43,141 nt of DNA from a virus: positions 1 through 43,141 of the IMG/VR virus record IMGVR_UViG_3300050120_000109. One strand, 5' to 3'. The stretch's first letter is position 1; every line of letters begins with the position of its first letter. The notes under the pieces were generated by a model. It saw only the letters and a program-made list of their open reading frames with translations, did not search any database and was not told the origin of the DNA. The position numbers and the translations under genes are program-made. Below are positions 3,438 to 34,575 of this stretch, piece after piece.

Positions 3438-3449
3438 GAGGGAAAGCCT

Positions 3450-4651: not shown

Positions 4652-4670
4652 AGCGTGGGGCTGTGGGGGT

Positions 4671-4680
4671 GTTACTAGAG
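4671..4680 (+). repeat. Copy 2 of the GTTACTAGAG motif (plus orientation)
   Basis: Exact 10-mer that directly abuts the ATG at 4681. Confidence 0.9.
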
Positions 4681-5317: not shown

Positions 5318-5322
5318 CGAGT

Positions 5323-6066
5323 ATGAGTAAAGCCGTTACGATGGCGACATGGGATGATGTCCCACACTTGACCGATAAAGACAAAGCCGAAATGCTGGCC
5401 GCTATTCCTGAGTGGCAACGCGACGCGCGAAGTAAAGGCGTGCCGCAACTCGGGTCTGGCGCAATCTATCCGGTGTCGGAAGACGACGTTGTCATCCCGC
5501 CGTTCGCAATCCCGGCGTTCTGGCCTCGGGGCTATGCTCTCGATGTGGGCTGGAATTGCACATGCGCGTTGTTCGGGTCGCACGATCGGGAGACCGATAC
5601 CCTCTACGTCTACAACGAGCATTATATGGGGAAAGCTGAGCCAAGCACCCATGCAACCGCCATCCATGGGCGTGGGAAGTGGCTGCAAGGGGTTGTCGAT
5701 CCGGCTGCGCGCGGGCGCTCGCAAAAGGATGGCGAGCAACTCATCCAGAACTATCGCGACTTGGGCTTGATCTTGTCGCCGGCAATCAACGGGGTCGAGT
5801 CGGGCATTTTCGAGGTCTGGCAACGTCTCGTGACGGGCCGGCTCAAGTTCTTCTCGACGCTGTCGAACACGCGCGCCGAATACCGGCTCTATCGGCGCGA
5901 CGCGAAGGGGCACGTCGTCAAGGTGATGGACCACGCAATGGACACGCTCCGCTACTTGGTGATGTCCGGTATTCATGTCTTCTCGACTGATCCGGGTTAC
6001 CTGCACAAGCTGGGGCACAAGCCCGGCGTCCTGTCGGAATATGATCCGCACGCCATGACAGAGTGA
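5323..6066 (+). CDS. terL: Terminase large subunit, C-terminal nuclease fragment (247 aa) with its own ATG
   Basis: 'ATWDDVPHLTDKDKAEMLAAIPEWQRDARSKGVPQLGSGAIYP...GYALDVGW...VVDPAARGRSQKDG...VMDHAMDTLRYLV' is the typical RNaseH-fold terminase nuclease half. It starts 5 nt after the preceding stop. Confidence 0.85.
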   Translation: MSKAVTMATWDDVPHLTDKDKAEMLAAIPEWQRDARSKGVPQLGSGAIYPVSEDDVVIPPFAIPAFWPRGYALDVGWNCTCALFGSHDRETDTLYVYNEHYMGKAEPSTHATAIHGRGKWLQGVVDPAARGRSQKDGEQLIQNYRDLGLILSPAINGVESGIFEVWQRLVTGRLKFFSTLSNTRAEYRLYRRDAKGHVVKVMDHAMDTLRYLVMSGIHVFSTDPGYLHKLGHKPGVLSEYDPHAMTE

Positions 6067-8418: not shown

Positions 8419-8430
8419 CTCTAGTAACGG
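8419..8430 (-). repeat. Copy 3 of CCGTTACTAGAG (minus orientation)
   Basis: Exact copy in the 22-nt spacer between the portal stop and the ATG at 8440. Confidence 0.9.
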
Positions 8431-12029: not shown

Positions 12030-12041
12030 CCGTTACTAGAG
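12030..12041 (+). repeat. Copy 4 of CCGTTACTAGAG (plus orientation)
   Basis: Exact and intergenic, 35 nt upstream of the ATG at 12076. Confidence 0.9.
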
Positions 12042-14355: not shown

Positions 14356-16769
14356 TGGCGCAACTCGCCTCGATAATGCAGCCGTCCTTTTCGGCCGGCG
14401 AAGTCTCGGCGCAACTGTGGTCGCGCGTCGATCTGGCGAAGTATCGGGCTGGTCTCAAGCTCGCCCGTAACTTCTTCATCCTGCCCTATGGCGGGGCTGC
14501 GACGCGGCCGGGGACGGCGTTCGTGATGCAGACCCTCGGGCAAGCCGCACCCGTGCGGATGATCGATTTCGTGTTCTCGACGCTGCAAGCCTACAGCCTG
14601 GAATTCGGCGGCGGATACATGCGCGTCGTGATGGATGGCGGCATGGTGCTGGAACCGGGCTTCGCGGTCTCGGCCGTGCCTGTGTCCTCGGTCGTCAATG
14701 CGACCGTGCCCGGGCACGACTACGCCGTGGGCGATTGGGTCTCGATCTCGGGCGAAGCGTCGATGGTCCAGGTCAACGACGTGTTTATCGTCGCCGCGAT
14801 CGCCGGCCAGGTGCTCACTCTGACGGACCTTGACGGGCTGCCGCCGCTGGGCGCGGCCGGCTGGGCGGCGTATGGCGGCGGCGGCACGATCGGCCGGATT
14901 TACACCATGGCGACGCCTTACGCGGCGGCGGACCTGGCGCTTCTCAAGTACACCCAAACCGCTGACACGCTGACGCTGACGCACCCGAACTACGCGAGCA
15001 ACGATATCACACGCACGCAGCATTGGGCGTGGACTCTCAACCCGATCACCTTTCAGGCGGCGGTGCAAACCCCGGCGAGCCTGAACGTGACGGCTCTGAA
15101 CGACCCGCTAACTGATGCCGACACGGCCGGCGGTGCGGCGCAAACCGTCGCCAATTTCCCCCGGCTGACGTTCTACTATTGCGTGACGGCCTTGACCGAT
15201 ACGCCTTCGGAAGAGGGTAACCCCACGGGTGTCGTTACGTGCGTCAATGCCGCGCTTAACCAAACCTCGGGCATCGTCAATCAAATCGCATGGACCGGGC
15301 CGGTCTCGGGGCCGGTGCCGTCGCGCTTCAACGTCTATGGGTCCGTGCCGCAGCCGGTGAACGCTGATCCGCCCACCATCTTCGGCTATATCGGCCAGTC
15401 CACGGGCCTGTCGTTTACCGATGTCAACATCAAGCCGGACTACACGCAAACCCCTCCGACGCACACAAACCCCTTTGCCAACAATAACAATCCGGGGGCG
15501 GTAAACTACTTTCAGGGGCGGCGCATCTTTGCCGGCTCCGGGCCGCAACCGCAAGCCGTGTGGATGACGCAAGCCGGCAATTACACGAACATGGACGTGT
15601 CGTTTCCGTCGCGGGACTCCGACGCGATCACGGTCTCGCTGCTGTCGAAGCAGGTGAACGCAATCAAGCATCTGGTCTCGATGAACGCTTTGCTTGCCCT
15701 GACAAGCAACGGCGCGTGGATGATCTCGGCCGGCGCGCAAGGTAGCTTCCTGTCGCCTTCGACCGTCGTTGCGTCGCCGCAAAGCTATAATGGCTGCTCC
15801 GACGTTACCCCGATCGCGATCAACTATGACATCCTGTATGTCCAGGCGCGCGGGTCCAAGGTGCGTGATCTGGCTTACAACTTCTACGTCCAGTTGTTCA
15901 CGGGCGCCGATATGTCGGTGCTGTCGTCGCATATGTTCTACGGCTTCAAAATCCTCGAATGGGCCTATGCGGAAGAACCGTATTACCTCGTCTGGGCGGT
16001 GCGCAACGATGGGGTCTTGCTGTCGTTTACTTACATGAAAGAGCAAGATGTCTATGCCTGGGCGCGGCATGACACGGGAAACGGCAATGGCGACGGCTTC
16101 ATGTCGGTCTGTTCAATACCGGAAGGCCAGGAAAATGCCCTTTATTTCGTCACGTCTCGAACGATATCCGGCCGCAACTTTGGGCGGCCGGTTCAATACA
16201 TCGAGCGTATGGCTTCTCGGAATTTCTATCAGTCCGGGGTGCCAAACGTCGCGCTGGCATGGTGCGTCGATTCGGGGCGCCAGTATCAAGGGCCTCCGGT
16301 CTCGCGCGTATATGGGCTGCGCCATCTCGAAGGGCGCACCGTGGCAATCCTCGCCGATGGCAATGTGCAGCCGCAACAGGTCGTTGTCGGCGGATCGGTC
16401 GCGGTGCAGGCGCCGGCCTCGGTCATCACTGTGGGCTTGCCGTTTCAAGCACAACTGCAAACCCTCGCCCTCGATGTCGGTGAGCCATCGATCCAAGGCA
16501 AGCGGAAGAAAATTGCCCGCACGTCGCTGATCGTGATGGACACGCGCGGCCTCAAGCTGGGGCCGGACGCGGCGCACCTGGCTGAGTTCAAGGATCGCAC
16601 GAATGAGAACTGGAACGCGGCGGTGCCTCTAGTAACGGGGCTGACAACCACGCTCCTGCCGCCAGTGTGGCAGGTCGATGGGTCGGTGTTCATTCAACAG
16701 GACCAGCCGTTGCCGGCAACCATCCTCGGCATCATCCCGCAAGTGGTCATCGGCGATGATCCGGGTTGA
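14352..16769 (+). CDS. Tail tubular protein B / nozzle (T7 gp12-like, 805 aa)
   Basis: Size and synteny after the gp11-like gene fit. The N-terminus is 'QPSFSAGEVSAQLWSRVDLAKYRAGLKLARNFFILPYGGAATRPG'. Confidence 0.75.
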   Translation: MMAQLASIMQPSFSAGEVSAQLWSRVDLAKYRAGLKLARNFFILPYGGAATRPGTAFVMQTLGQAAPVRMIDFVFSTLQAYSLEFGGGYMRVVMDGGMVLEPGFAVSAVPVSSVVNATVPGHDYAVGDWVSISGEASMVQVNDVFIVAAIAGQVLTLTDLDGLPPLGAAGWAAYGGGGTIGRIYTMATPYAAADLALLKYTQTADTLTLTHPNYASNDITRTQHWAWTLNPITFQAAVQTPASLNVTALNDPLTDADTAGGAAQTVANFPRLTFYYCVTALTDTPSEEGNPTGVVTCVNAALNQTSGIVNQIAWTGPVSGPVPSRFNVYGSVPQPVNADPPTIFGYIGQSTGLSFTDVNIKPDYTQTPPTHTNPFANNNNPGAVNYFQGRRIFAGSGPQPQAVWMTQAGNYTNMDVSFPSRDSDAITVSLLSKQVNAIKHLVSMNALLALTSNGAWMISAGAQGSFLSPSTVVASPQSYNGCSDVTPIAINYDILYVQARGSKVRDLAYNFYVQLFTGADMSVLSSHMFYGFKILEWAYAEEPYYLVWAVRNDGVLLSFTYMKEQDVYAWARHDTGNGNGDGFMSVCSIPEGQENALYFVTSRTISGRNFGRPVQYIERMASRNFYQSGVPNVALAWCVDSGRQYQGPPVSRVYGLRHLEGRTVAILADGNVQPQQVVVGGSVAVQAPASVITVGLPFQAQLQTLALDVGEPSIQGKRKKIARTSLIVMDTRGLKLGPDAAHLAEFKDRTNENWNAAVPLVTGLTTTLLPPVWQVDGSVFIQQDQPLPATILGIIPQVVIGDDPG
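16627..16638 (-). repeat. Copy 5 of CCGTTACTAGAG (minus orientation), inside the nozzle gene
   Basis: Exact copy. In frame it reads as A-V-P-L-V-T-G. Confidence 0.9.
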
Positions 16770-17229: not shown

Positions 17230-17822
17230 TCCCTGCCGCCGCTGCAATGACGATGATGGCGGTCTCGACGGTCGCCTCCGGGGCGATGGCGGCCTATGGC
17301 TCAATCCAGCAAGGCCAGGCGCAACAGGCGGCGGCGAACTATTCCGCGCAAGTCGCGTCGAATAATGCGGTGATCGCCGGATACAACGCCAAGGCGGCAA
17401 CCGATGCCGGCACGGCGGCCGTGACCGCGAATCAGATGAAAGTCGCCTCGCTGGAAGGCGCTGAGCGGGCGTCGGAAGCGTCCAATGGCGTCGATCCGAA
17501 CAGCGGCTCGCCGCTGGATATGCAGGTCTCCACGGCCAAGGTCGGCGAATTGGACTCCTTGACGATCTCCAACAATGCCGCGCGAACCGCCTACGGTTAC
17601 GAGGTCCAGGGGATGAGCCAGACCGCGCAATCGGCGCTGGACACCGCGCAAGGGGCCAACGCTGCGACGGCCGGCGATATCGGCGCGGCAACCTCGGTCA
17701 TGTCGAGTGCGGCGTCGCTGTCGGGCAAGTGGGCACAGTACCAACTGCAAGCCGGGTCGAACGGCGGCACGTCGCCTAACCCGATAATGACGGTCAACGG
17801 CGGTCTGGGCGGGCAATACTGA
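17217..17822 (+). CDS. Internal virion/ejection protein candidate in the gp14 position (201 aa)
   Basis: RBS GAGG lies upstream of ATG 17217. It has a hydrophobic N-terminus and an Ala/Gln/Ser-rich body. Confidence 0.6.
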   Translation: MCVVIPAAAAMTMMAVSTVASGAMAAYGSIQQGQAQQAAANYSAQVASNNAVIAGYNAKAATDAGTAAVTANQMKVASLEGAERASEASNGVDPNSGSPLDMQVSTAKVGELDSLTISNNAARTAYGYEVQGMSQTAQSALDTAQGANAATAGDIGAATSVMSSAASLSGKWAQYQLQAGSNGGTSPNPIMTVNGGLGGQY

Positions 17823-20146
17823 TGGCACGGGTTCCCACTCTCGACGCTCCGACAGTCGCCCCTTCGGCCGCGCCTACCCCGTTCCAGTCGCAACAGGCTT
17901 CGCCGGCCGCGTTCGGTGCCGGCGTCGGTCAGGCGGAACAAGGGCTGGGCGGCGCGCTCGGGCAGGCTGGCGACGCTGCCTATACATACGCCATGGCGCG
18001 GACGGGCCTGAACAATGAAAGCGCGGCGAAAGACGCGGATGTCGCCGGCAACGCCAAGCTGACCGATATCATGTTCAACACGACAACCGGCTACAACATG
18101 AAGATGGGCCGCGACGCGGTGGATGCGATGCCGGACGCCATGGCGGCAATCCAGAAAGTCAGGACCGACACGCTCGCCAGCCTGCCAAGCGACGCGGCGC
18201 GCAATATGTTCGATCAGACGTTCCAACGCCGCGTGCAAATGATGCAAGAGGCGATTGGCTCGCATGCCGATCAACAAAGCAAGCAATGGGCGCTGGGGTC
18301 GTCCGATGCCCGGATCGATAGCGTCCTCGGCGATGCGTCGCGGTTCTACAACGATCCCGCCAAGTTCGGCCTGGCGGTCGGGACGGCCAAGGCGGAAGTA
18401 TTGTCGCAAGGCCAAATCCTCGGATGGTCGCCGGATCAGGTTAATCAGAAGCAACAACAGGTCGTCTCTAAGGCGTGGTCGATGCGGCTGGAACAACAGT
18501 CGATCAACGATCCCGTGGGCGCGCTCAACACCTATCGCCAGAACATCGATCAAATCGACGGCCAGACTCAACCGATGCTGGAAAAGGTGCTGAAGGCCGG
18601 GGCGCTGCCGGTACAGACCCGGAGCATCGCGCAATCGGTGATGTCGGGCGGCGGGACGGTAGCGAATTTCGATGCCCTGACGGCCGCGCAAACGCACCAG
18701 GAAAGCGGCGGCGCCGGTAACCAGGTCAACGCGGACGGCTCGCCGCTGCTGTCACCAAAAGGTGCCGCCGGCATGATGCAATTGATGCCGGACACCGCGC
18801 GCGATGTCGCCGCGAAGCTGGGCCTTGCCTACGATCCGGCCTTGCTGACGGCGGACACGCCGGAAGGCAAAGCCTACAACACGGCGCTGGGGCAGGAATA
18901 CACGCGCCAAATGCTGCAACGCTATGGCGGCAACCAAACGCTGGCCCTGGCGGCTTACAATGCCGGGCCGGGCCGGGTGGATCAGTGGCTCGTGAAGTAT
19001 GGAGACCCTCGGACGGGTGCGATTTCCGACTCTGACTTTATCAACGCAATCCCGCTGCCGGAAACCCGCGACTACGTGACCAAGATCAACGCGGCGGCTC
19101 CCCCGTCTGCGGCGGCTCCGCCTACCTCGGCCGATGTGCGCACGCATCTGCCGGAGTGGATGGCGAAGGCGCGGGCGGTCGGCGAACAGATTTTCCCGAA
19201 CCAGCCGGACGCGGTCGACCAGATCGTGAGCCATGTCATGACCTACGGCGCACAGGTCCAGGCGGGCAACGCGGCAACCGAAAAGCAGGCGCGCGATCAA
19301 CTGCTGACAACGTCGCTGGGGCTGGTGACAACGCCGGATGGTGGCTACGCGCAAAACCCAAAGGCGCAACGGCCGGCCTCGCTGGAAGAACTGGTGGCGG
19401 ACCCGAAAAGCAAGGCGGCGTGGGCGACGGCGGACCCTATCCAGCAATCCGGCATCCTCACGGTGCTGGCGCAAAACGCTAAGGGCACGTCGCCGCCGAT
19501 GTCGGATGAAGCCTTGTCGAAGTATTACTCGCTGTTGGGGCAGGCTGCGAACGATCCTGACGGGTTTCAGCAAGTCAACCTCGCGGACAAGGGCTTGCTT
19601 GATCTTCTGCCGCACGAAATGACCACGCACCTGATGACCGTCCAGGCGACGCAAGCGACGAAGCAACAGCGTGATATGCAGAAGGGCGAAAACCTCAATC
19701 ACGCGATGAGTATCTCGACCGGGATGCTGTCGGGCGCCGGCATCGTGAGGTCGAACGGCGCGGGCGGCAAGGAAACCCCGGCGCAAATCCGTGCCGCGCA
19801 ACTCTATGACCAGTTCACGGGGCGGCTCTCGACCGCGCTTGACACCTTCATCACGACAAACAAGCGGCAACCGACGGATAGCGAAATCAGGACCATGTCG
19901 GGGTCGCTGCTGACGCAAGGGCTGCAATCGGGCACGGGCTGGATTTACGATAATCAGGTCCGGTCGTTCCAGGTCGATCCGTCACAGTTCTACGTGCAAG
20001 TGCCGAAAGAACAGCGGGCGATGGTCCAGTCCACTTTGCAATCGCAACTAGGCCACGCGCCAAGCGAGCGTGAAATGACGGACTATTGGACCCGATACCA
20101 GCTACATCGCGCCTCGGGGTCCGCCGCCTCGGCGGGCACGCAATAG
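17822..20146 (+). CDS. Internal virion protein with a lytic transglycosylase (SLT) domain (774 aa)
   Basis: 'HQESGGAGN...GAAGMMQLMPDTA...LALAAYNAGPGRV' at residues about 285-395 (nt about 18674..19007) carries the SLT catalytic Glu, GLMQ-like and AYNAG motifs. Confidence 0.85.
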   Translation: MARVPTLDAPTVAPSAAPTPFQSQQASPAAFGAGVGQAEQGLGGALGQAGDAAYTYAMARTGLNNESAAKDADVAGNAKLTDIMFNTTTGYNMKMGRDAVDAMPDAMAAIQKVRTDTLASLPSDAARNMFDQTFQRRVQMMQEAIGSHADQQSKQWALGSSDARIDSVLGDASRFYNDPAKFGLAVGTAKAEVLSQGQILGWSPDQVNQKQQQVVSKAWSMRLEQQSINDPVGALNTYRQNIDQIDGQTQPMLEKVLKAGALPVQTRSIAQSVMSGGGTVANFDALTAAQTHQESGGAGNQVNADGSPLLSPKGAAGMMQLMPDTARDVAAKLGLAYDPALLTADTPEGKAYNTALGQEYTRQMLQRYGGNQTLALAAYNAGPGRVDQWLVKYGDPRTGAISDSDFINAIPLPETRDYVTKINAAAPPSAAAPPTSADVRTHLPEWMAKARAVGEQIFPNQPDAVDQIVSHVMTYGAQVQAGNAATEKQARDQLLTTSLGLVTTPDGGYAQNPKAQRPASLEELVADPKSKAAWATADPIQQSGILTVLAQNAKGTSPPMSDEALSKYYSLLGQAANDPDGFQQVNLADKGLLDLLPHEMTTHLMTVQATQATKQQRDMQKGENLNHAMSISTGMLSGAGIVRSNGAGGKETPAQIRAAQLYDQFTGRLSTALDTFITTNKRQPTDSEIRTMSGSLLTQGLQSGTGWIYDNQVRSFQVDPSQFYVQVPKEQRAMVQSTLQSQLGHAPSEREMTDYWTRYQLHRASGSAASAGTQ

Positions 20147-20157
20147 GAGTTGGCACG

Positions 20158-20508
20158 ATGGCGCAACATTACATTCTCGGTGATGAGTGCAACCCGGTCG
20201 CGGTCGAATTCGATGAGTGGGTGCAGTGGTTCGGCACGGCTGATCGGCAAATCGCGGTCACCCAGGTTGATGTCGAAGGCTGTCAGGCAATCGTCTCGAC
20301 GCAGTTTATCGGCGTCGATCCCCGCCCGGAAATCCCCGGTCTGACATGGGAGGGGGCGGCGCTGCTGTTCGAAACGCTGGTTATCGGCGGGCCGCTGCAC
20401 TCGTGCGTCGTGAAATACGCGACGGTCGATGATGCCGGGCGCGGTCATGTCGTCGTGGTCGATCGCGTCGATAAGGCAATCAAGGAAGCGATAGACAATG
20501 CCCGATGA
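20158..20508 (+). CDS. Small conserved phage protein (116 aa)
   Basis: AGGAG lies 9 nt upstream of ATG 20158. The sequence is 'DEWVQWFGTADRQIAVTQVDVEGCQAIVSTQFIGVD...LFETLVIGG'. Confidence 0.65.
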   Translation: MAQHYILGDECNPVAVEFDEWVQWFGTADRQIAVTQVDVEGCQAIVSTQFIGVDPRPEIPGLTWEGAALLFETLVIGGPLHSCVVKYATVDDAGRGHVVVVDRVDKAIKEAIDNAR

Positions 20509-23500
20509 TTTCGCGTCGTTCGTAACCTCGACGCTGGGCGGGCCTGTCGCGCCGGCCGCTGGGGCTGCGCCTGGTGCTGTCGGCGGGCTGCCGTCGCCGG
20601 CCAACGATATCGGCGGCGGGTTCCCGGCGTTCATGAAGTCGATGCACCTGGCTACGGCGCAAGCCGCCAAGGGGGCGGTTGGCGCGGCGGCTGATGTCAA
20701 CCCCGACGAAGCGGGCAAGGCGGTGCAGCTCGCCCCGCAACTGGGGCTGCCGGCGTCGGTCGTGGAAACCGACGTTCCCGGCTTCACGCAACAGGCGGCG
20801 GCGGCAAAGAGCAACGCGCTGATCGATGGCAATCCGGTGCTGGCCTCGTGGCTGGCGGCAAACCCGGACGCTGCCCGCATCGCGAAGGACGACTTCGACA
20901 AGCTGGACGTGGTGACGAAGGCGGCAACCGCGCTCAAGTCGGGATGGACGGGCGCCTTTGCCGGTGATCAACGCGGCCGGCTGGGTATGCAAACCATGCT
21001 GGGCGACAACTCGCCGGCAACCGCCGCGTCGATCGCCGGCTTCGACAAGCAGCTTGCCGCCAGTCCGCAACTGTCCGGGGTCTATGGCGCGCTGCAAAAG
21101 GTGACCGGGTTCGCGGGCGGGCTGCTGGATAACTTCCTGCACTCGGCGCCGGAAGCCTATGTAGGGGCCGCTGTGGGCGGCGCTGGCGGGCTGGCGGGCG
21201 GCGGGCCTGCCGCACCTGTCACGGGCGCTGTGGGCGCCATAGGCGGCGCTGCCGTGGGCCTCGGCGTGGGGTTCAAGTGGGATATGTCGCAAATCGCGGC
21301 CGGTAACACTTACCTCGATCTCGGGAACGTCAAAGGGGCGGGTGGGGAGTCGATCGGCGAAAGCGCCAAGCAGGCGGCGGCGGTGCTGGTCGGGATCGGG
21401 ACGTATGCGCTCGCCGGCCTCGGCGGCAAGGCGTCGGGTGTGCCGCAAGCGGCCTCCGGGCTGCTGTCGGACGCGATCAAGGAATCCGTCGTGCAACCGA
21501 CCGTCGCCCGCGCGCTGGGGCAGTTCGCCGGCAAGCTGGCGGCGGGTGGTGCCGAGTTCGCCGCGATCAACGCCGGCATGGAAGGGACGAGCATCTTCGG
21601 GACTGAGTTGGCGAAGCAACTCTCGGCCGGGGATTTCGATACCGTGTTCAACGACCCGGTCACACGGCAACAGGTCATCGACAACCTGATGAGTGCCGCG
21701 CTGGATGGCGCGATGCTGGGGCCGCTGGTGCGGGTGCCCGGCGCTGCCATGGGGTTTGCCGAGTCCTCGATCCGGGCGCGGCAGGCGGCGTCTGATGTCG
21801 AAGCCTTCCATGCGCTGGAAACCGGCACGGCCGATAGCCGGATGCGGGGCCGGTCGCTGGATGCCTTCCACGCCTTCCTTGCCCGGCAGACTGACGGCGC
21901 GCCTACCGAAAACCTGTTCCTGCCGGCTGATCGGGTGCGGGAGTTGTATCAGTCGGCCGGCATCGAACCGGGCGCCGATGATGGCCTGCTGGGCAAGGTG
22001 GCGCCGGATATCGCGGAGCAGCTTGACCAGGCGCAACACACGGGCGGCGATGTCGTCCTCCCCACGGCCGCGTATGTCACGCATCTGGCCGGCACGCCGC
22101 TATCGGACCATCTCCGCCCGGATATCCGGGTCCGGCCGGATGCCATGTCGGCGCGGGAGGCGATGGATTTTCAAAGCAAGCGGGCGGAGTGGCTCGCCGA
22201 TCAGGTCGCCAGCACACACGCCGAAATGGAGCATGAACAGGCGGCGGCCGGGCCTGAGCGGGATGTGTTCGACGACGTGTTCTCGCAACTGCGCGGGGCC
22301 GGTCATACCGTCGATGCGGCGCGGCAATACGCCGCTGTCGTGGCGGCGCGCTACGGTGCCCGTGCGGCGCGTCTGGGGCCTGATGCCGGCTCCGCGCTCG
22401 ATCTCTACCATCAAGCCGGGCTGACGGTGCAGCGGGCGGTGCCGGACGATCTGGCGGCGCTGCCGGTGACCGATACCGACATGGTCCTCAACGCGCTGCG
22501 GCAGGGTGGCAAGCGGCTGCCGTCCACGCGCGACCTGATGGGGCCGAACCTGACGGAGTTCGTCAAGGATCGCGGCGGCGTCTACGACGACACGGGCGAC
22601 TTGCGGGCGATGGACCTGCAACGCGAACGCGGGCTGATCCGCATTCAGAAAAAAACCGGCCTGCAATGGGAAAGCAAAGCCGGCCGCACGATCAACGATC
22701 ATCACGTCGCGGCCTGGGAGCAAGGCTATTTCCCGGAACACGGCAACGATCCAACGTTCGATGACCACGACTTTGTCAACGCTCTGGCGGCGGAGTCGAG
22801 GGGTGACCGGCGGTATGCGCTGGGCAACGTCGATGAACGGCGCAAGGGGTTCTCCGATGCCGCCGCGTCGATGGACCGCTGGTTGGACGACAACAATATC
22901 GATCTCGATCACGTCACGAATGACGATGTAAAGCGGATGCTGGCGCAACATGCCGGCGACGCGGCCGATGCCTATGACCAGTCGGCCTATCACGGCTCGC
23001 CGCATGTCTTCGATAAGTTCGATAGTGCGAAGATTGGCACCGGTGAAGGCGCGCAAGTCTTTGGGCACGGCCTCTACTTCGCCGGCAACAAGGGGATTGC
23101 CCGGTATTACCGCGACGCGCTGAGCAAGGGCAAAACGGTTGGCGGTGTGCCGTCCACGGAATTGAGCAAGGGCGCGCAAACCGCGTTGCGGATGGCGCGC
23201 GATATGGGCGGCGTGGCGCGGGGTCTGCGGGAATATGAGACGCTGATCGCGGCGGAAAAGCGAGCGGTCGAAGAACACGAAAGGATTGTTGCCGACCTGA
23301 AGGCGCACCCGGAAAAACAAGACCGGGACGCGGAAGGCTGGGGCGACCTCGGTGGGCATCTGTCCGGCGTCGAAGCTGATCTCGCCTATCGCAAGGAACG
23401 GCTGGCGCATTACGAAGAAACCCTCGCCGGCTTTAAGGAGTTGGAAGGCAAGGAAATCAAGGGCGACGGCCGGCTGTTCCATGTCGATCTGCCGGAAGAT

Positions 23501-26500
23501 CACGAATACTTGGATTGGGACAAGCCGCTAAAGGATCAACCGGCGCATGTGCGGGCGGCGCTGCATGCGCTGGGGGTATCGGGTGATTTCCAGTGGTCGG
23601 ATAAGCAGCCGATCGGCGGGGGTGACCATGCCTGGATGATGACCGACACGGGCGGCGGGCCGTGGGCAACGCAACGCGCGATCATCCGCACCTTTGGTGA
23701 CAAGTTCGAAGTCGAGTTAATGCACGAGGTGCGGCCGGATGATAACGAATCGCGGGGCCGCACGTTCGATTCGCTTGACGAAGCCAAAGCCTACACCGAA
23801 ACGGCGGTCGATAAGGCCGGCTGGGGGTCGCGCGGTTCGGACGCCTACCACGACCTTGCGCGCAAGCTGGTGGCGCCGGTTGACCCGGAAGCGCGGAACG
23901 AAGGCAACCCTCCGGGCTGGGGTCATGTGGAACCTGAGCATAGGGAAGATCCTGCCGCCGCCAGCAGGGCGTTACTAGAGCATGGGGTCGTGGGCGTGCG
24001 TTACCTCGATGCGGGCAGTCGCGGCAGTGAAGGCGGCACCCACAACTATGTCGTGTTCGATGATAAGCGGGTGACGGTCAAATCTTTCGAGCAACGCAAG
24101 GGCGATGAGCCACGCGGCAAGATCACGCTGGAAGACGGCCGCGCGATCATTACGCTGTTCGCGAAAGCGGACCTGTCCACCTTCCTGCATGAAACTGGGC
24201 ATCTCTGGCTTGATGAAATGGTCCAGGACGCCGCAAGGCCGGACGCACCGCAAGGCATCCGTGATGACATGGCTGCAATCCTCAAGTGGATGAAGATCGA
24301 AAGCCCGGACCAGATTGACACCGAACAGCATGAACTGTTCGCGCGCGGCTTCGAAGCCTACCTGATGACCGGCAAGGCGCCATCGGCCGCACTGGTCGGG
24401 GCGTTCCGCAAGTTCAAGGCGTGGATGGTCTCGATCTATCAAAACGCGCTGGGCCTGCGCGCGCCGATCAACGACCAAATGCGCGCGGTAATGGATCGTA
24501 TGCTCGCAACCGACAACGAGATTGACGCGGCGCGGGCCTCTGAGCGGCACGGGGCGCTGTTCCGCGACGCGGCCTCGGCCGGCATGACCAATGCCGAATT
24601 TGCCGCCTACACCGGGGCGGTGTCGGCCGCGCGCGATCAGGCATCCGACCGGCTGTTGCGGCGGGCGATGGAAGCGATCAGGGCGCAACGGACGAAAAGC
24701 TACCGGGAGGAACGCGCCGGCATCCGCGACGATGTCGAGCGACAAATGCGCACGCAACAGGATCAGCGGGCGCAATACTGGCTCCGCACGGGCCGGATGC
24801 TGGATGACCCGGAAGCCGAATCGGGGGTGCCGCATCAACGGCTCTCGGGGCATGCGATCAAAGGCATGTATGACAACGATGGGGTCTTCGACCTGCTGCC
24901 AAAGGGCACCTATTCGATGGTGCATGCCGGCATCCAACCGGCTGACGTGGCGGAAATGTTCGGCTACCGCGACGGGCAAGGGCTGGTCTCGGCGCTGATG
25001 AACCTTGAAGCGCGGCGCAAAAAAGCCGTCGCGGACACCGGCAAGCCGCTGGATGGCATGGGGTTCCTCGCGCACCAGGTCGACCAGGAAACCGATCGGC
25101 GGATGATGGAGCGGCGCGGCGATGCGCTCGCCGATGGGTCGATCGAGGAAGAGGCGCTCGCGGCCGTCCACAACGCCGCGCAAGCTGATGTCATGGCAAC
25201 CGAGTTGCGGGCGCTCGCGCGCAAGGCCGGGGAAAACCCGCCGTTTTCCATGGCCTCGTTGAAGCAGTGGGCCGCGTCCACCATCGCGGACCTGCCGGTT
25301 GACCGCGGCGCATACCCCGGCACGTATCGCCGCTCGGAAGCGCGCGCCGGCCGGGAGGCGGAGCGGGCGTTGCTGAAAGGTGACCTGCCCGCCGCGTGGC
25401 AGGCGAAGCAGCGGCAATTGGTCAACCATCTGCTGGCGACGGAAGCCGATCTCGCGAAGGATGATTACGACGCTGGTAAAAAACTGTTTCAGCGGTTCGC
25501 CGGCCGGGGCGCGTTCGCCGGCATCGATCAAGCTTATACTGACCGTATCCACGAACTGTTGAAACGGTTCGGCTTTCAAACGTCGCGCTCTGATGATGAG
25601 TTGGGCAGGGGCCTGGGCGCGCAAACCCTCGAAGGCTTCGTGCAAACAAAGTCGGCCGATGGCTACGAAATTACCATCGATCCGGCGTTCTTCGATCCGC
25701 GTCTCGCGAAGCCGTTGGACGATCTGACCACGGAAGAATTCCGCGCGCTCAAGGATGCCGTCACGTCGCTGGCGCATGTCGGCCGGATGGAAAAGTCCGT
25801 GGTGGTCGAAGGGCAAAAGCTGGAATTGTCCGAACTGGTGGCGGAGGGTGTTGACCAGTTGAAGGACTGGAAACGGTCGGACGTGCCGGCCGAGATCAAC
25901 GCCGGTACCGCGACGGGATTCCGGGGCCTGCTGGAAAAGGTCTCGTCGCTGATGCGCACGGCCGATGCCGGCATGCTGAAGCAAGAGCAGGTCTTCGATT
26001 GGCTGGACAACCGCAAGGCTGACGGCGTGTTCAACCGGGTGGTGTTCGAACCGCTCAAGGCGGCGCAGCACCGCGAAAACGACCTTATGGTGATGCTGAC
26101 GGGCCGGCTCAAGGCGCTGCATGAAACCATGCCGGACGGCTGGGAAAAGGGCCTCGGCGTCTCCAAGGTGATGCCGGAATTGATCGATGAGCGGACGGGC
26201 AAGCCGTTCAAGTTCCGCCATCAAGATATCCTCGCGTTGGCTTTGAACACGGGCAACGCGGTGAACGCGGACAAGCTGGCGCGTGGCTACGGCTGGGACC
26301 GGGGCGATATCAAAACCGTCCTCGATCGCGAAATGACGGAACACGACTGGAATTTCGTGCAAGGCATCTGGGACACCTTTGAAACGTTGTGGCCGGATAT
26401 CGAAAGCCTCACGCGGCGGATGACCGGGCTGGGGCCGGAAAAGGTCGAAGCGGTGCCGGTGCAAACCCCGCACGGTGAGTTCCGGGGCGGGTATTATCCT

Positions 26501-27961
26501 CTCGTCTACGATCCGGTTAAAAGCTGGGACGCGGAATTGCGCCGGCAAAAGGCGGCGGGCGGGCTGTTCGAAAATAGCTATTTCAAGGCGTCAACGCCAA
26601 AGGGACACACGCTAAAGCGTATCGACAATTATTACGCACCCATCCGCCTGAGCCTCGATGCGATGCCGTGGAAGCTGGGCCAGGCGGTCCATGACCTGGC
26701 GTTCCGCGAAGCCATCATGGCGGCGGATAAATTCCTCGGGGACAAGCGGTTGCGCGGTGTCGTTTCGTCGGCGCTCGGGCGTGAGTATGTCGGGCAATTC
26801 CGGCCGTGGCTGCAATCCATCGCCAACGATCGCAACGTCGATGACAAGGGCTTGACCGGGCTGGACTGGCTGGCGCGGCAGGCGCGCATCAACACAACCA
26901 TGGTGGGGGTTGGGTTCCGGGTCACCACCATGCTCAAGCATGGCACAACGGCGTTGTTCAATTCGTTTGGTGAGTTGGGCGCGACGTGGATGCTGCGGGG
27001 CACGCGGGAGGTCTACGGCTCGCCGGAACGCTTCATGGCCGCGCATGATTTCATCCTGTCGCAATCTGGGGAAATGCGGCATCGGATCAACTCGATCGAT
27101 CGTGACGTGCGGGAGGGCCTGCGCACCATTCAGGGCGAAAGCGGCCTCCGCGCGACGGCGGAGCGGTTCGGTCACTACGGCGTGGCAATCCTCGATATGG
27201 GGTCGGCGCTGCCGACGTGGATGGGCGCCTACCGCAAGGCGCTGGCGGAGGGGGTCGCGCCTGATGCGGCGGTCCTCGCGGCCGATAAGTCGGTGCGCAA
27301 TGCGCACGGCGCGCAAGGTATTACCGACGTGGCGGCGGTGCAGCGTGGCGGCGATGTCGCAAAGATGTTCACGATGTTCTATGGCTTTTTCAATCATATC
27401 TATAACAGGCAGAGGGATACTCTTCGCACCGCTGGTCAAGCGATAGATCAGGCCAAGCAAGGTGAGTTCGCCGGCGCGCGCCGGGACTTCGGCATCGTCT
27501 TGGCGCGGACCTTCTACTACTTGATTGTGCCGGCGCTGGTCGAAGCGATGGTGTCGGAAGGCGGGCCGGACAAGGACAAGGATGAAAGCTGGCTGGGCTG
27601 GGCGGCGAAGGCGGTTGCCGGGGAAATCCCGGCCGGTATTCCGCTGCTCCGCGATGCCGCGAAAGCCGCGATCTCCGGGCGGACCTATGAAATGTCGCCG
27701 ATTGCAAAGGCGGTCGAGACGGCCATCCTCGCCGGCCGGGATATCGGGTCTGCGATCGGGCTGCGCGATCACGAGGCGTCGCCGCGCTGGGTGCGGCACG
27801 CGATCGAAACGCCTGGCTACGTGTTCGGCCTTCCCACGGGGCAGGCGGCGGGGACCGCGCAATACCTGTGGGACATCTGGCACGGGGACGAAGAACCGGA
27901 CGGCGCGGCGGATTTCATGCGGGGCCTGATGTATGGGCCGAAACCCAAGGGCGCCAGCTAA
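20498..27961 (+). CDS. Giant polyvalent virion/ejection protein (2487 aa) with a PARP-like ADP-ribosyltransferase module and an HExxH zincin motif
   Basis: It is a single uninterrupted ORF in the T7 gp16 position. Residues about 829-1195 (nt about 22982..24082) read 'YHGSPHVFDKF...GEGAQVFGHGLYFAGNKGIARYY' ... 'GTHNYVVFDDKRV'. 'FLHETGHLWLDEM...EQHELFARGFEAYL' lies at residues 1229-1290 (HETGH at nt 24188..24202). There is a Gly/Ala-rich hydrophobic stretch at residues about 220-320. Confidence 0.9.
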   Translation: MPDDFASFVTSTLGGPVAPAAGAAPGAVGGLPSPANDIGGGFPAFMKSMHLATAQAAKGAVGAAADVNPDEAGKAVQLAPQLGLPASVVETDVPGFTQQAAAAKSNALIDGNPVLASWLAANPDAARIAKDDFDKLDVVTKAATALKSGWTGAFAGDQRGRLGMQTMLGDNSPATAASIAGFDKQLAASPQLSGVYGALQKVTGFAGGLLDNFLHSAPEAYVGAAVGGAGGLAGGGPAAPVTGAVGAIGGAAVGLGVGFKWDMSQIAAGNTYLDLGNVKGAGGESIGESAKQAAAVLVGIGTYALAGLGGKASGVPQAASGLLSDAIKESVVQPTVARALGQFAGKLAAGGAEFAAINAGMEGTSIFGTELAKQLSAGDFDTVFNDPVTRQQVIDNLMSAALDGAMLGPLVRVPGAAMGFAESSIRARQAASDVEAFHALETGTADSRMRGRSLDAFHAFLARQTDGAPTENLFLPADRVRELYQSAGIEPGADDGLLGKVAPDIAEQLDQAQHTGGDVVLPTAAYVTHLAGTPLSDHLRPDIRVRPDAMSAREAMDFQSKRAEWLADQVASTHAEMEHEQAAAGPERDVFDDVFSQLRGAGHTVDAARQYAAVVAARYGARAARLGPDAGSALDLYHQAGLTVQRAVPDDLAALPVTDTDMVLNALRQGGKRLPSTRDLMGPNLTEFVKDRGGVYDDTGDLRAMDLQRERGLIRIQKKTGLQWESKAGRTINDHHVAAWEQGYFPEHGNDPTFDDHDFVNALAAESRGDRRYALGNVDERRKGFSDAAASMDRWLDDNNIDLDHVTNDDVKRMLAQHAGDAADAYDQSAYHGSPHVFDKFDSAKIGTGEGAQVFGHGLYFAGNKGIARYYRDALSKGKTVGGVPSTELSKGAQTALRMARDMGGVARGLREYETLIAAEKRAVEEHERIVADLKAHPEKQDRDAEGWGDLGGHLSGVEADLAYRKERLAHYEETLAGFKELEGKEIKGDGRLFHVDLPEDHEYLDWDKPLKDQPAHVRAALHALGVSGDFQWSDKQPIGGGDHAWMMTDTGGGPWATQRAIIRTFGDKFEVELMHEVRPDDNESRGRTFDSLDEAKAYTETAVDKAGWGSRGSDAYHDLARKLVAPVDPEARNEGNPPGWGHVEPEHREDPAAASRALLEHGVVGVRYLDAGSRGSEGGTHNYVVFDDKRVTVKSFEQRKGDEPRGKITLEDGRAIITLFAKADLSTFLHETGHLWLDEMVQDAARPDAPQGIRDDMAAILKWMKIESPDQIDTEQHELFARGFEAYLMTGKAPSAALVGAFRKFKAWMVSIYQNALGLRAPINDQMRAVMDRMLATDNEIDAARASERHGALFRDAASAGMTNAEFAAYTGAVSAARDQASDRLLRRAMEAIRAQRTKSYREERAGIRDDVERQMRTQQDQRAQYWLRTGRMLDDPEAESGVPHQRLSGHAIKGMYDNDGVFDLLPKGTYSMVHAGIQPADVAEMFGYRDGQGLVSALMNLEARRKKAVADTGKPLDGMGFLAHQVDQETDRRMMERRGDALADGSIEEEALAAVHNAAQADVMATELRALARKAGENPPFSMASLKQWAASTIADLPVDRGAYPGTYRRSEARAGREAERALLKGDLPAAWQAKQRQLVNHLLATEADLAKDDYDAGKKLFQRFAGRGAFAGIDQAYTDRIHELLKRFGFQTSRSDDELGRGLGAQTLEGFVQTKSADGYEITIDPAFFDPRLAKPLDDLTTEEFRALKDAVTSLAHVGRMEKSVVVEGQKLELSELVAEGVDQLKDWKRSDVPAEINAGTATGFRGLLEKVSSLMRTADAGMLKQEQVFDWLDNRKADGVFNRVVFEPLKAAQHRENDLMVMLTGRLKALHETMPDGWEKGLGVSKVMPELIDERTGKPFKFRHQDILALALNTGNAVNADKLARGYGWDRGDIKTVLDREMTEHDWNFVQGIWDTFETLWPDIESLTRRMTGLGPEKVEAVPVQTPHGEFRGGYYPLVYDPVKSWDAELRRQKAAGGLFENSYFKASTPKGHTLKRIDNYYAPIRLSLDAMPWKLGQAVHDLAFREAIMAADKFLGDKRLRGVVSSALGREYVGQFRPWLQSIANDRNVDDKGLTGLDWLARQARINTTMVGVGFRVTTMLKHGTTALFNSFGELGATWMLRGTREVYGSPERFMAAHDFILSQSGEMRHRINSIDRDVREGLRTIQGESGLRATAERFGHYGVAILDMGSALPTWMGAYRKALAEGVAPDAAVLAADKSVRNAHGAQGITDVAAVQRGGDVAKMFTMFYGFFNHIYNRQRDTLRTAGQAIDQAKQGEFAGARRDFGIVLARTFYYLIVPALVEAMVSEGGPDKDKDESWLGWAAKAVAGEIPAGIPLLRDAAKAAISGRTYEMSPIAKAVETAILAGRDIGSAIGLRDHEASPRWVRHAIETPGYVFGLPTGQAAGTAQYLWDIWHGDEEPDGAADFMRGLMYGPKPKGAS
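23971..23980 (+). repeat. Copy 6 of GTTACTAGAG (plus orientation), inside the giant gene
   Basis: Exact 10-mer. In frame it reads as A-L-L-E-H. Confidence 0.9.
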
Positions 27962-34563: not shown

Positions 34564-34575
34564 CCGTTACTAGAG
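34564..34575 (+). repeat. Copy 7 of CCGTTACTAGAG (plus orientation)
   Basis: Exact and intergenic, 13 nt upstream of the ATG at 34589. It is followed at once by an 8-codon mini-ORF (ATGGGGGTATTAGATGCAAAGCCATGA). Confidence 0.9.

What the first reader, a model, noticed from the sequence alone, without database searches (positions are those of the whole stretch)
20498..27961. 2487-aa polyvalent virion protein carrying a PARP-like ART module with an Asn at the catalytic Glu position and an HExxH peptidase-like motif
This single ORF occupies 17% of the genome in the T7 gp16 (ejected core protein) position.
- Residues about 829-870, 'YHGSPHVFDKF...GEGAQVFGHGLYFAGNKGIARYY', mirror the PARP/diphtheria-toxin-class H-Y-E ART motifs (HGS ... 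G-x-G-[IL]-Y-F-A).
- The distal strand 'GTHNYVVFDDKRV' aligns by eye with PARP 'NEYIVYD' but has Asn where the catalytic Glu sits.
- Between them is an insert of about 300 aa.
- 'FLHETGHLWLDEM ... EQHELFARGFEAYL' follows directly (HETGH at nt 24188..24202).

Large polyvalent phage proteins that combine ART, peptidase and other effector domains are established as injected counter-defence or takeover effectors. This particular architecture, and the Glu-to-Asn change, may indicate altered chemistry such as mono-ART activity or a non-protein substrate. One copy of the GTTACTAGAG word also lies inside the ART region (23971..23980).
Basis: partly seen in the sequence, partly recalled or inferred. 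Interest (0 to 1): 0.65.

Follow-up and report, generated by a model that had tools for sequence, protein, structure and literature searches.

The report
Giant ejected phage protein carrying ART
This 2487-residue gene is the podovirus's large internal "ejection" protein, with a predicted ADP-ribosyltransferase payload in a swappable middle slot; it is a new member of a very large, already described but experimentally untested family, not a one-off oddity.

Summary
The ORF, the motifs and all coordinates are real. The gene sits in the T7 gp16 (IVP-D) slot of a BPP-1/epsilon15-like structural cassette and is the orthologue of Bordetella phage BPP-1 Bbp10.

- **ART module (residues 829-1198):** a divergent, insert-bearing member of Pfam ART-PolyVal. 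The Asn at the PARP-Glu position is the family norm (134 of 138 homologue matches), not a private Glu-to-Asn change. The family is published as H-Y-D.
- **HExxH motif (H1231, E1232, H1235) plus E1279:** invariant or nearly so in the aligned homologues. It opens a conserved C-terminal module of about 1260 aa, found in over 12,000 protein clusters.
- **Zincin fold not shown:** Foldseek, Pfam and NCBIfam give nothing significant.
- **Family layout:** N-terminal LPD22 scaffold, then a variable payload (ART, PBECR nucleases, LPD3, GGDEF), then the HExxH domain and the C-terminal module.
- **Same layout elsewhere:** the ART-then-HExxH arrangement recurs in Caulobacter phage Jess A and in 31 of the 146 best cluster representatives.

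The open question is whether the HExxH domain is a payload-releasing peptidase.

The parts
20498..27961 (+). Whole ORF, 2487 aa: IVP-D (T7 gp16-position) polyvalent ejection protein, orthologue of BPP-1 Bbp10
   Evidence: ORF confirmed. Synteny. The C-terminal 1290 aa is 28-34% identical to the large proteins of BPP-1, Pseudomonas phage AF, Carin1, CP2, Jess A and a Vibrio phage.
20672..20944 (+). LPD22 domain (aa 59-149), the N-terminal signature of this protein family
   Evidence: Pfam PF18834, E=1.2e-16, 61 bits against a cutoff of 28.6. Present at the N-terminus of all 6 phage orthologues and of 20/20 sampled relatives.
21206..21433 (+). Two Gly/Ala-rich hydrophobic, transmembrane-like segments (aa 237-259 and 292-312)
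   Evidence: Kyte-Doolittle scan with a 19-residue window, peaks of 1.66 and 1.36.
21785..22942 (+). Conserved N-terminal scaffold (about aa 430-815), no named family
   Evidence: 26-32% identity to Carin1, CP2, Jess A and BPP-1 over aa 268-827. The same blocks appear in the consensus of alignment A6.
22982..23137 (+). ART block 1 (aa 829-880): strand 1 with H832-G-S and strand 2 with G-L-Y860-F-A, plus Y871
   Evidence: Pfam ART-PolyVal positions 10-53 (E=7e-4 for the whole protein, 5.7e-5 for the excised module; below cutoff). Conservation: H832 135/138, Y860 138/138, Y871 131/137. Aligns with the tankyrase/PARP1 Y-loop.
23138..23458 (+). Insert 1 (aa 881-987): long helical hairpin inside the ART module
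   Evidence: AF2 model helices 92-122 and 141-168. It draws only coiled-coil Foldseek hits. Absent or shorter in most homologues.
23459..23563 (+). ART block 2 (aa 988-1022): G-R-L-F-H-V strand and the LDWDKPL..Q motif
   Evidence: Conserved in about 120-129 homologue matches. hhalign pairs it with PARP1 'GNMYEL' (weak).
23564..23944 (+). Insert 2 (aa 1023-1149): small alpha/beta subdomain
   Evidence: AF2 strands and helices at model residues 223-319. Most homologues have a shorter version.
23945..24091 (+). ART block 3 (aa 1150-1198): G-V-R-Y-L-D1171, then G-T-H-N1183-Y-V-V-F-D1188 and the last strand
   Evidence: Conservation: N1183 134/138, D1171 129/138, D1188 123/134.
24110..24532 (+). 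HExxH domain (aa 1205-1345): beta-hairpin plus helices; H1231-E1232-x-x-H1235 (nt 24188-24202), H1278-E1279 (nt 24329-24334), E1286
   Evidence: H1231, E1232, H1235, E1279 and E1286 are invariant in the 25-sequence alignment A2. One of 29 sequences has K at the E1232 position. 'HE..H' occurs in 151/152 domain instances. AF2 pLDDT 87. No significant PDB, Pfam or NCBIfam match.
24533..27958 (+). Rest of the conserved C-terminal module (aa 1346-2487); includes a hydrophobic segment at aa 2330-2353 (nt 27485-27556)
   Evidence: phrog_9880 covers aa 1195-2482 with E=0. Homology. The distance from HExxH-domain start to C-terminus is fixed at about 1263 aa in 131 long relatives. Hydropathy. No PDB relative by profile search.

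Best explanation
This is the phage's large internal virion (ejection) protein, of the IVP-D / T7 gp16 class. It is built as a payload carrier. The steps below are marked as shown or inferred.

**Layout (shown)**
- A conserved N-terminal scaffold of about 800 aa holds LPD22, two Gly/Ala-rich hydrophobic helices and helical blocks.
- A conserved C-terminal module of about 1290 aa flanks it on the other side. This module begins with an HExxH...E domain and contains one more hydrophobic helix.
- Between them lies a middle slot whose content differs between related phages.
- In this phage the slot holds an insert-bearing ART-PolyVal domain. The family-typical residues are intact: H832, Y860, Y871, N1183, and D1171/D1188.

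**Mechanism (inferred)**
- The protein is packed in the capsid core above the portal.
- At infection it is expelled through the tail together with the IVP-B-like and transglycosylase-bearing IVP-C-like proteins.
- Its conserved, largely helical and partly hydrophobic parts help build the conduit across the envelope.
- The ART domain thereby reaches the cytoplasm ahead of, or together with, the DNA.
- There it would use NAD+ to ADP-ribosylate a host target (takeover or counter-defence), by analogy with T4 Alt.

**HExxH domain (inferred, weaker)**
- It is most simply read as a zincin-like metallopeptidase of the kind common in polyvalent proteins.
- Its position directly after the payload fits self-processing that frees or activates the payload.
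For: - **Position and orthology:** the cassette order is tail tube A, tail tube B, IVP, transglycosylase protein, this ORF, tail fibre. That is identical to BPP-1 bbp14 through bbp9. The C-module is 28-34% identical to Bbp10 and its relatives. Bbp10 is listed as an IVP-D homologue in PMC4819975, Table 2. That paper also states that IVPs host domains destined for the cytoplasm.
- **Payload slot in phage orthologues:** they carry PBECR1 (BPP-1), PBECR5 (Carin1), LPD23 (AF) or canonical ART-PolyVal (Jess A) between LPD22 and the C-module.
- **Payload slot in cluster representatives:** in 131 long representatives the HExxH-to-C-terminus distance is 1263 aa (5-95%: 1226-1327). The N-terminal part ranges from 222 to 2585 aa. 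In 20 sampled relatives LPD22 is present in 20/20, with ART-PolyVal in 6, LPD3 in 4, PBECR5 in 2, GGDEF in 1 and DUF7178 in 1.
- **ART by sequence:** 5357 homologues, the listed ones mostly annotated PF18760. All 84 aligned members hit ART-PolyVal and 42 hit DUF3990. Both are in the Pfam ART clan.
- **ART by structure and motif:** the AF2 model has pLDDT 83. BFVD Foldseek hits to ART-PolyVal-labelled phage proteins reach E=1e-13 to 1e-15. The only PARP-type PDB hits align exactly on the G-x-G-L-Y-F-A-x-N...Y loop.
- **HExxH conservation:**
- **HExxH model:** the motif lies in the first helix and E1279 in a later helix. This matches the MPTase description in PMC5512222.
- **Hydrophobic segments:**
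Against: - There is no direct evidence that this protein is in virions or is ejected. The virion proteomics table for the CP2-like phage is an image and could not be read.
- Foldseek of the ART model against solved structures returned no ART, only coiled-coil proteins. Profile searches of the PDB gave only E>1 PARP hits.
- The Pfam ART-PolyVal score is below the gathering cutoff (20.8-24.4 against 31.2 bits) and covers only the N-terminal third of the model.
- Which residue provides the acidic catalytic group is unresolved. It could be N1183 at the PARP-Glu position, or D1171 or D1188.
- No member of the ART-PolyVal family has, to my knowledge, been tested biochemically. None turned up in the literature search.
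- HExxH domain: Foldseek best E=1 with no zincin in the 50 hits listed. Pfam gave only weak Peptidase_M78 hits in 3/25 members (E>=0.03). NCBIfam gave none. The model shows a two-stranded hairpin rather than the three-stranded sheet with an N-terminal helix.
- No sequence similarity to T7 gp16 structures was found.
Confidence: 0.7

Rival explanations
1. The HExxH...E domain is not a peptidase. It is a structural, possibly metal-stabilised, helical element of the conserved ejection module. The payload stays attached to the full-length protein and acts while tethered at the membrane conduit, as N4 vRNAP does when packaged unprocessed.
For: - No zincin match by Foldseek, Pfam or NCBIfam.
- The domain is always at a fixed distance from the C-terminus. 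It therefore behaves as part of the C-module rather than as a mobile domain in most proteins.
- N4 vRNAP and ArdC/TraC1 carry MPTase domains yet are transferred unprocessed (PMC5512222).
Against: - Near-absolute conservation of H, E, H and a downstream helix Glu is the classic zincin signature.
- The domain also occurs outside the IVP-D context, after MuF_C+ART in a non-podoviral element (L007), and in multiple copies in some proteins. That is behaviour typical of an autonomous enzymatic domain.
Confidence: 0.3
2. The ART-like module is catalytically different from protein ADP-ribosyltransferases. For example, it could be an NAD+ glycohydrolase, or an enzyme that ADP-ribosylates nucleic acids or small molecules, or it could be inactive and act as an NAD/ADP-ribose-binding decoy. 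The reason would be that the PARP catalytic-Glu position is Asn.
For: - N1183 aligns with PARP1 E988 in the E-Y-I-V-Y-D versus N-Y-V-V-F-D match.
- Asn is conserved in 134/138 matches, so selection keeps a non-acidic residue there.
- From general knowledge, H-Y-E-class relatives include DNA-modifying (DarT) and RNA-modifying (Tpt1) enzymes, and PARPs lacking the Glu are mono-transferases.
Against: - Two conserved Asp residues (D1171 at 129/138, D1188 at 123/134) lie close by.
- The family's describers assign an H-Y-D triad and predict protein modification (PMC5512222).
- There are no biochemical data either way.
Confidence: 0.25
3. The ORF is a fusion artefact or a decaying gene, and the ART module is a degenerate relic broken up by insertions.
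For: - The Pfam hit is partial and below threshold.
- About 235 aa of inserts split the core.
Against: - It is an uninterrupted 7.4-kb ORF.
- All family-invariant residues are retained.
- The AF2 model is confident, with pLDDT 83.
- Similar insert-bearing versions occur in other proteins, for example P0010 aligned end to end.
- The same architecture is seen in dozens of independent clusters.
Confidence: 0.03

Closest known systems
Bordetella phage BPP-1 Bbp10 (NP_958679), IVP-D homologue of the epsilon15/BPP-1 group
   Same: - Same slot in the same cassette.
- N-terminal LPD22.
- The same conserved C-terminal module of about 1280 aa, starting with the HExxH domain (27.7% identity over aa 1206-2473).
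-.
   Different: - Bbp10 carries a PBECR1 RNase-like domain in the payload slot instead of an ART.
- It is 2052 aa against 2487 aa here.
Caulobacter phage Jess A gp039 (QCW21969) and relatives RapA, SR18 and BL94
   Same: The same full architecture: LPD22, then ART-PolyVal directly before the HExxH domain, then the C-module.
   Different: - Its ART is the compact canonical form (aa 612-777, Pfam E=6e-22) without the two large inserts.
- It has a different last-strand sequence ('ITEMGTVVF' against 'GTHNYVVF').
- It is annotated only as 'lysis protein'.
ART-PolyVal (PF18760), Tox-ART-HYD2 clade, as described by Iyer et al. 2017 (PMC5512222)
   Same: - H in strand 1 and Y in strand 2.
- Occurs in phage polyvalent proteins encoded among virion genes.
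- Predicted to be an injected host-modifying enzyme.
   Different: - This copy belongs to a subfamily with the extra LDWDKPL block and large inserts, so the Pfam model matches only its first third.
- The position of the published 'D' could not be fixed here.
T7 gp16 (IVP-D) and the T7 ejectosome
   Same: - Gene position, large size and a helical, partly hydrophobic nature.
- Presumed role in the trans-envelope conduit.
   Different: - No detectable sequence similarity here.
- In T7 the transglycosylase is on gp16, whereas here it is on the preceding protein.
- T7 gp16 has no ART or HExxH domain.
Phage N4 gp50 virion RNA polymerase, and the Roseovarius Plymouth podovirus 1 vRNAP
   Same: An IVP-D-type ejected protein with an embedded cytoplasm-directed enzyme. 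The Roseovarius protein also carries the prototype polyvalent ART and MPTase domains (PMC4819975, PMC5512222).
   Different: No RNA polymerase module here, and a different podovirus lineage.
T4 Alt
   Same: A virion-packaged, injected ADP-ribosyltransferase. It is the functional model for the payload.
   Different: Alt belongs to the R-S-E clade, is not part of a conduit protein, and comes from a myovirus.

Membership tests
ART-PolyVal (Pfam PF18760) | Pfam model match at or above the gathering score | tested here: not met
   20.8 bits for the whole protein and 24.4 bits for the excised module, against a cutoff of 31.2. Only model positions 10-53 of 140 are matched.
ART-PolyVal (Pfam PF18760) | Significant sequence homology across the module to proteins that are themselves family members | tested here: met
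   5357 hits at E<=1e-3, with the best at 1e-30 to 1e-71. Most of the 120 listed carry PF18760. 84/84 aligned members hit PF18760. Three conserved blocks are shared.
ART-PolyVal (Pfam PF18760) | His in strand 1 and Tyr in strand 2 (the H-Y of the H-Y-D triad) | tested here: met
   H832 lies in model strand 14-20 and Y860 in strand 44-48. They are conserved 135/138 and 138/138.
ART-PolyVal (Pfam PF18760) | Asp in strand 5 | tested here: inconclusive
   The PARP-Glu-equivalent position is N1183 (134/138 Asn). Conserved Asp residues are at 1171 and 1188.
ADP-ribosyltransferase fold (H-Y-E/D class) | Structural superposition on a solved ART | tested here: not met
   Foldseek of the 386-aa model against the PDB gave no ART and only coiled-coil hits with E>=0.09. 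The inserts probably mask the core. BFVD hits are to predicted ART-PolyVal models only.
ADP-ribosyltransferase fold (H-Y-E/D class) | NAD+-dependent ADP-ribose transfer | not testable with these tools
   This needs biochemistry.
Zincin-like metallopeptidase (the MPTase of polyvalent proteins) | HExxH within a helix, plus a Glu in a following helix | tested here: met
   H1231/E1232/H1235 lie in model helix 29-49 and E1279 in helix 78-94. They are invariant in the 25-sequence alignment A2. HE..H occurs in 151/152 instances.
Zincin-like metallopeptidase (the MPTase of polyvalent proteins) | Three-stranded sheet with an N-terminal helix preceding the HExxH helix | tested here: inconclusive
   The model shows only a two-stranded hairpin (strands 10-15 and 18-23) and no N-terminal helix. 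The model was started at aa 1198, so an upstream element could have been cut off.
Zincin-like metallopeptidase (the MPTase of polyvalent proteins) | Significant profile or structure match to a known zincin family | tested here: not met
   - Pfam: no hit for the query; Peptidase_M78 in 3/25 members at E>=0.03.
- PDB profile search: Spartan at E=0.44 and YME1 at E=1.4.
- Foldseek against the PDB: best E=1, no zincin.
- NCBIfam: none.
IVP-D / T7 gp16-class ejection protein | Position between the IVP-C-like gene and the tail fibre gene in a podoviral structural cassette | tested here: met
IVP-D / T7 gp16-class ejection protein | Homology to an accepted IVP-D | tested here: met
   Homologous to BPP-1 Bbp10 (E=1e-95 to 1e-106), which PMC4819975 lists as IVP-D. 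Direct similarity to T7 gp16 structures was not found.
IVP-D / T7 gp16-class ejection protein | Presence in virions and ejection into the host | not testable with these tools
   Needs proteomics or infection assays. The relevant table for the CP2-like phage was not readable.
Polyvalent protein (Iyer et al. 2017) | Several unrelated effector-type domains in one polypeptide encoded among virion genes | tested here: met
   LPD22 + ART-PolyVal-type module + HExxH domain within the structural cassette.

The most novel reading that the evidence does not exclude
The invariant HExxH...E domain is not covered by Pfam, NCBIfam or any solved structure. It sits immediately after the variable payload in more than 12,000 protein clusters. 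The novel reading has two parts:
- It is a dedicated self-processing metallopeptidase that cuts the payload (here the ART) free once the protein has been ejected. That would make this podoviral IVP-D family a general enzyme-delivery chassis with an internal, swappable cargo slot.
- The Asn-type ART-PolyVal active site carries out a non-canonical reaction, for example on nucleic acid or on a defence-signalling nucleotide.
Probability: 0.2. Interest if true: 0.6.

Novelty: new member of a known kind. Interest (0 to 1): 0.33.

Why it matters
If the inferences hold, this protein shows how short-tailed phages deliver an enzyme into the host together with their DNA: the enzyme is built into the middle of the conduit-forming ejection protein.

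The family is very large. More than 12,000 clusters at 50% identity carry the HExxH domain. Relatives carry different payloads in the slot: ART, RNase-like PBECR, LPD3 and GGDEF. None of these proteins has been characterised biochemically.

Three questions remain open: the target of the ART-PolyVal domain, the chemistry of its Asn-containing site, and whether the HExxH domain releases the payload. Answers would apply to thousands of phages.

For this particular window, however, the finding adds another example and not a new principle.

Tried and rejected
- **Nucleotide search of deposited phages:** megablast of the ORF found no match. The phage has no close sequenced relative; the portal protein is only about 40% identical to BPP-1-like phages.
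- **Sequence searches of the PDB:** I used the whole protein, the ART profile, an insert-deleted ART profile, the HExxH profile and the C-module profile. Nothing was significant.
- **Foldseek of the whole ART model against the PDB:** dominated by the coiled-coil hairpin insert (MORC2, colicin E3, AcrA). This is uninformative about the core. I could not trim the model or read its coordinates.
- **hhalign of the insert-deleted ART profile against the PARP1 catalytic domain:** Only the Y-loop to 'MYE' region aligned, at probability 15%. I treat this as a weak lead only.
- **Cyanophage A4 pre-ejectosome protein gp27:** I considered whether the C-module matches it (PMC12002296). No sequence link was found.
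- **PROSITE zinc-protease pattern:** fails at T1233, by hand check.
- **Private Glu-to-Asn mutation:** rejected by the homologue column counts.
- **A single 300-aa insert:** rejected by the conserved block at aa 988-1022.
- **Self-correction:** It is E1279.

Full report
**1. Observation**

The window contains a single uninterrupted ORF at 20498..27961 on the + strand, ATG to TAA, 2487 aa, which is 17.3% of the 43,141 bases.
- YHGSPH...GHGLYFAGNKGIARYY at aa 831-872.
- GTHNYVVFDDKRV at aa 1180-1192.
- HETGH at aa 1231-1235, nt 24188..24202.
- EQHELFARGFEAYL at aa 1276-1289.

GTTACTAGAG is at 23971..23980. It is one of seven exact copies in the window where none is expected by chance.

**2. Genomic setting**

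PHROG scans of the neighbours give this gene order:

| Window position | Product |
|---|---|
| 1184 | small terminase |
| 6696 | portal |
| 9567 | protease/scaffold-type protein |
| 10408 | major capsid protein |
| 13624 | tail tube A |
| 14352 | tail tube B |
| 16908 | internal virion protein |
| 17822 | 774-aa protein with a transglycosylase domain |
| 20498 | the big ORF |
| 28335 | tail fibre with a T7 gp17-like N-terminus |

This is the T7 gp11-gp17 order. It is identical, gene for gene, to bbp14 through bbp9 of Bordetella phage BPP-1.

There is no nucleotide-level relative among 50,697 deposited phages. The portal is about 40% identical to those of BPP-1-like phages. At protein level the C-terminal 1290 aa is 28-34% identical to the corresponding giant proteins of six phages:
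- BPP-1 (Bbp10)
- Pseudomonas phage AF
- Cobetia phage Carin1
- Xanthomonas phage CP2
- Caulobacter phage Jess A
- a Vibrio phage

Hardies et al. list Bbp10 as the IVP-D (T7 gp16) homologue of the epsilon15/BPP-1 group. They also note that IVPs host domains destined for the cytoplasm (PMC4819975). The 'gp16 position' reading is therefore sound. Packaging and ejection remain inferences.

**3. The ART module**

Pfam gives only a partial, sub-threshold ART-PolyVal hit at aa 831-880 (model positions 10-53 of 140; 20.8 bits against a cutoff of 31.2). A homologue search with aa 801-1351 found 5357 proteins at E<=1e-3. The best are at 1e-30 to 1e-71, and nearly all those listed carry PF18760.

Three blocks are conserved:
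- aa 829-880: strand 1 'AYHGSP', strand 2 'GHGLYFA' and the following helix with Y871.
- aa 988-1022: 'GRMYEV' and 'LDWDKPLSEQ'.
- aa 1150-1198: 'GIPGIRYLDAGSRG...GTxNYVVFDD'.

The 'insert of about 300 aa' is therefore two inserts:
- A 107-aa helical hairpin (881-987).
- A 127-aa alpha/beta subdomain (1023-1149), which most relatives have in shorter form.

Family and clan membership:
- All 84 aligned homologues hit ART-PolyVal. Half also hit DUF3990 and three hit RES.
- These families belong to the Pfam ART clan (PMC7955679).

Structural evidence:
- An AlphaFold2 model of aa 815-1200 is confident (pLDDT 83, pTM 0.73).
- Against predicted viral structures it matches proteins labelled ART-PolyVal at E=1e-13 to 1e-15.
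- Against solved structures it matches only coiled-coil proteins through the hairpin insert, and no ART.
- A profile with the inserts removed finds tankyrase-2 PARP domains as three of its four PDB hits. They align exactly on 'G-x-G-I/L-Y-F-A-E-N...Y', but at E of about 3.5.

I conclude that membership of the ART-PolyVal family is well supported. The ART fold rests on that membership plus motif-level agreement, not on a structural match obtained here.

**4. The Asn**

N1183 does line up with the PARP catalytic Glu in the hexapeptide match N-Y-V-V-F-D against E-Y-I-V-Y-D. However, Asn occupies this column in 134 of 138 homologue matches. It is the family norm and not a change in this protein.

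Iyer et al. describe the family's active site as H (strand 1), Y (strand 2) and D (strand 5), and place it in the Tox-ART-HYD2 clade (PMC5512222). Two well-conserved Asp residues, D1171 (129/138) and D1188 (123/134), are candidates for that D. I could not decide between them without model coordinates. The compact ART of Jess A has a different last-strand sequence.

The query keeps all family-consensus residues, so it is as likely to be active as any other member. No biochemical study of the family was found.

**5. The HExxH domain**

In an alignment of the query with 28 homologues from phages and metagenomes, H1231 and H1235 are present in all. E1232 is replaced by K in one sequence. In the 25-sequence alignment A2 built from them, H1231, E1232, H1235, E1279, E1286 and the F-A-R-G-F-E-x-Y-L context are invariant or nearly so.

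Evidence that fits a zincin:
- An AlphaFold2 model of aa 1198-1345 (pLDDT 87) is a beta-hairpin followed by five helices.
- HExxH lies in the first helix, and H1278-E1279 at the start of the third.
- This matches the 'HExxH helix plus Glu helix, with a variable insert between' description of the zincin-like MPTases, which Iyer et al. report as the commonest domain of polyvalent proteins.

Evidence that fails to confirm it:
- Foldseek against the PDB gives no zincin (best E=1).
- The PDB profile search gives Spartan/SprT at E=0.44 and YME1 at E=1.4.
- Pfam gives Peptidase_M78 in 3 of 25 members at E>=0.03.
- NCBIfam gives nothing.

The peptidase call is plausible but unproven.

**6. Family architecture**

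A profile of the HExxH domain, searched against 1.84 billion cluster representatives, finds 12,058 proteins at E<=1e-3 and 6,999 at E<=1e-30. Among the best 146:
- 131 are longer than 1900 aa.
- In those, the distance from the start of the HExxH domain to the C-terminus is almost constant (median 1263 aa; 5-95%: 1226-1327).
- The part before it ranges from 222 to 2585 aa.
- 31 of the 146 carry the same ART subfamily upstream, often directly next to the HExxH domain.

Of 20 others sampled:
- All have LPD22.
- Six have canonical ART-PolyVal.
- Four have LPD3.
- Two have PBECR5.
- One has GGDEF.
- One has DUF7178.

Cultured relatives show the same pattern: PBECR1 in BPP-1, PBECR5 in Carin1, LPD23 in AF and canonical ART-PolyVal in Jess A.

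One metagenomic podovirus contig has ART+HExxH in the IVP-D slot, split into two ORFs (L008). The HExxH domain also occurs after MuF_C+ART in a non-podoviral element (L007).

The family plan is therefore a conserved N-scaffold (LPD22, Gly/Ala-rich hydrophobic helices, helical blocks up to about aa 815), then a swappable payload slot, then the HExxH domain and the rest of a fixed C-module. This window is one more instance, with ART as payload.

**7. Mechanism**

- **Shown:** homology, position, domain order, residue conservation and the hydrophobic segments at aa 237-259, 292-312 and 2330-2353.
- **Inferred:** the protein is packed in the capsid core, expelled at infection and contributes to the trans-envelope conduit. 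This follows the T7 and epsilon15-type models and the CP2-like phage study, which assumes its 2300-aa orthologue is a core protein.
- **Inferred:** the ART payload reaches the cytoplasm and ADP-ribosylates a host target, as T4 Alt does.
- **Inferred, weaker:** the HExxH domain self-processes the protein to free the payload.

Rival readings are given in the structured fields: a structural HExxH domain, non-canonical ART chemistry, and a degenerate relic.

**8. Comparison and novelty**

The closest known proteins are BPP-1 Bbp10 (same chassis, different payload) and Caulobacter phage Jess A gp039 (same chassis and same payload type). The concepts are published: polyvalent proteins, ART-PolyVal, MPTase, and IVP-D hosting cytoplasmic enzymes (PMC5512222, PMC4819975). 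This is a new member of a known kind.

What is not, to my knowledge, spelled out in the papers read here is the fixed-position HExxH domain that marks the boundary between variable payload and constant C-module across thousands of proteins. That remains the most interesting open point.

**9. Verdict**

- Observation: confirmed.
- Interpretation: partly supported.
- Interest: 0.33.
- Novel reading (a payload-releasing peptidase and/or non-canonical ART chemistry): probability about 0.2, interest 0.6 if true.

Noticed in passing
window 901-910(-), 4671-4680(+), 8419-8428(-), 12032-12041(+), 16627-16636(-), 23971-23980(+), 34566-34575(+): GTTACTAGAG occurs 7 times exactly where 0 are expected, on both strands. 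Five copies are preceded by CC. Three copies lie in short gaps just after gene ends (8419, 12032, 34566), and two lie inside coding sequence (16627, 23971). No function is evident: it could be a promoter, a nick site, a recognition site or a homing-type site.
   Followed up: partly
window 2559-6066 (+): The large terminase appears to be split. ORF 2559-3437 matches the N-terminal ATPase part (Pfam Terminase_6N, E=4e-12; phrog_2 positions 265-402). ORF 5323-6066 matches the C-terminal part (phrog_5653; phrog_2 positions 425-593). About 1.9 kb lies between them, holding three ORFs with no functionally annotated family match and one GTTACTAGAG copy. This could be an inserted mobile segment, an intron, or a naturally split terminase.
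   Followed up: partly
window about 20158-20508 (+): A small ORF (116 aa from its first ATG) fills the gap between the transglycosylase protein (which ends at 20146) and the big ORF. It overlaps the big ORF's start codon region by 11 nt. It has no PHROG or Pfam match. BPP-1 has no gene at this place.
   Followed up: partly
window 17822-20146 (+): The transglycosylase (lytic) domain is on the IVP-C-position protein (aa about 290-425), as in BPP-1 bbp11, and not on the gp16-position protein as in T7.
   Followed up: no
L007 1-10496 (metagenome contig ERZ28634633 scaffold_2119): A run of polyvalent-type genes (ART-PolyVal; MuF_C+LPD3; a 934-aa ORF with no Pfam hit on record; MuF_C+ART+HExxH domain) lies directly next to bacterial pyrimidine-biosynthesis genes. 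This shows the HExxH domain outside the podoviral IVP-D context.
   Followed up: no
P0207 (2496 aa), P0206 (969 aa), P0208 (2773 aa), P0293 (3565 aa): A few relatives carry two to four copies of the HExxH domain in one polypeptide. This fits an autonomous domain rather than a fixed structural element.
   Followed up: no
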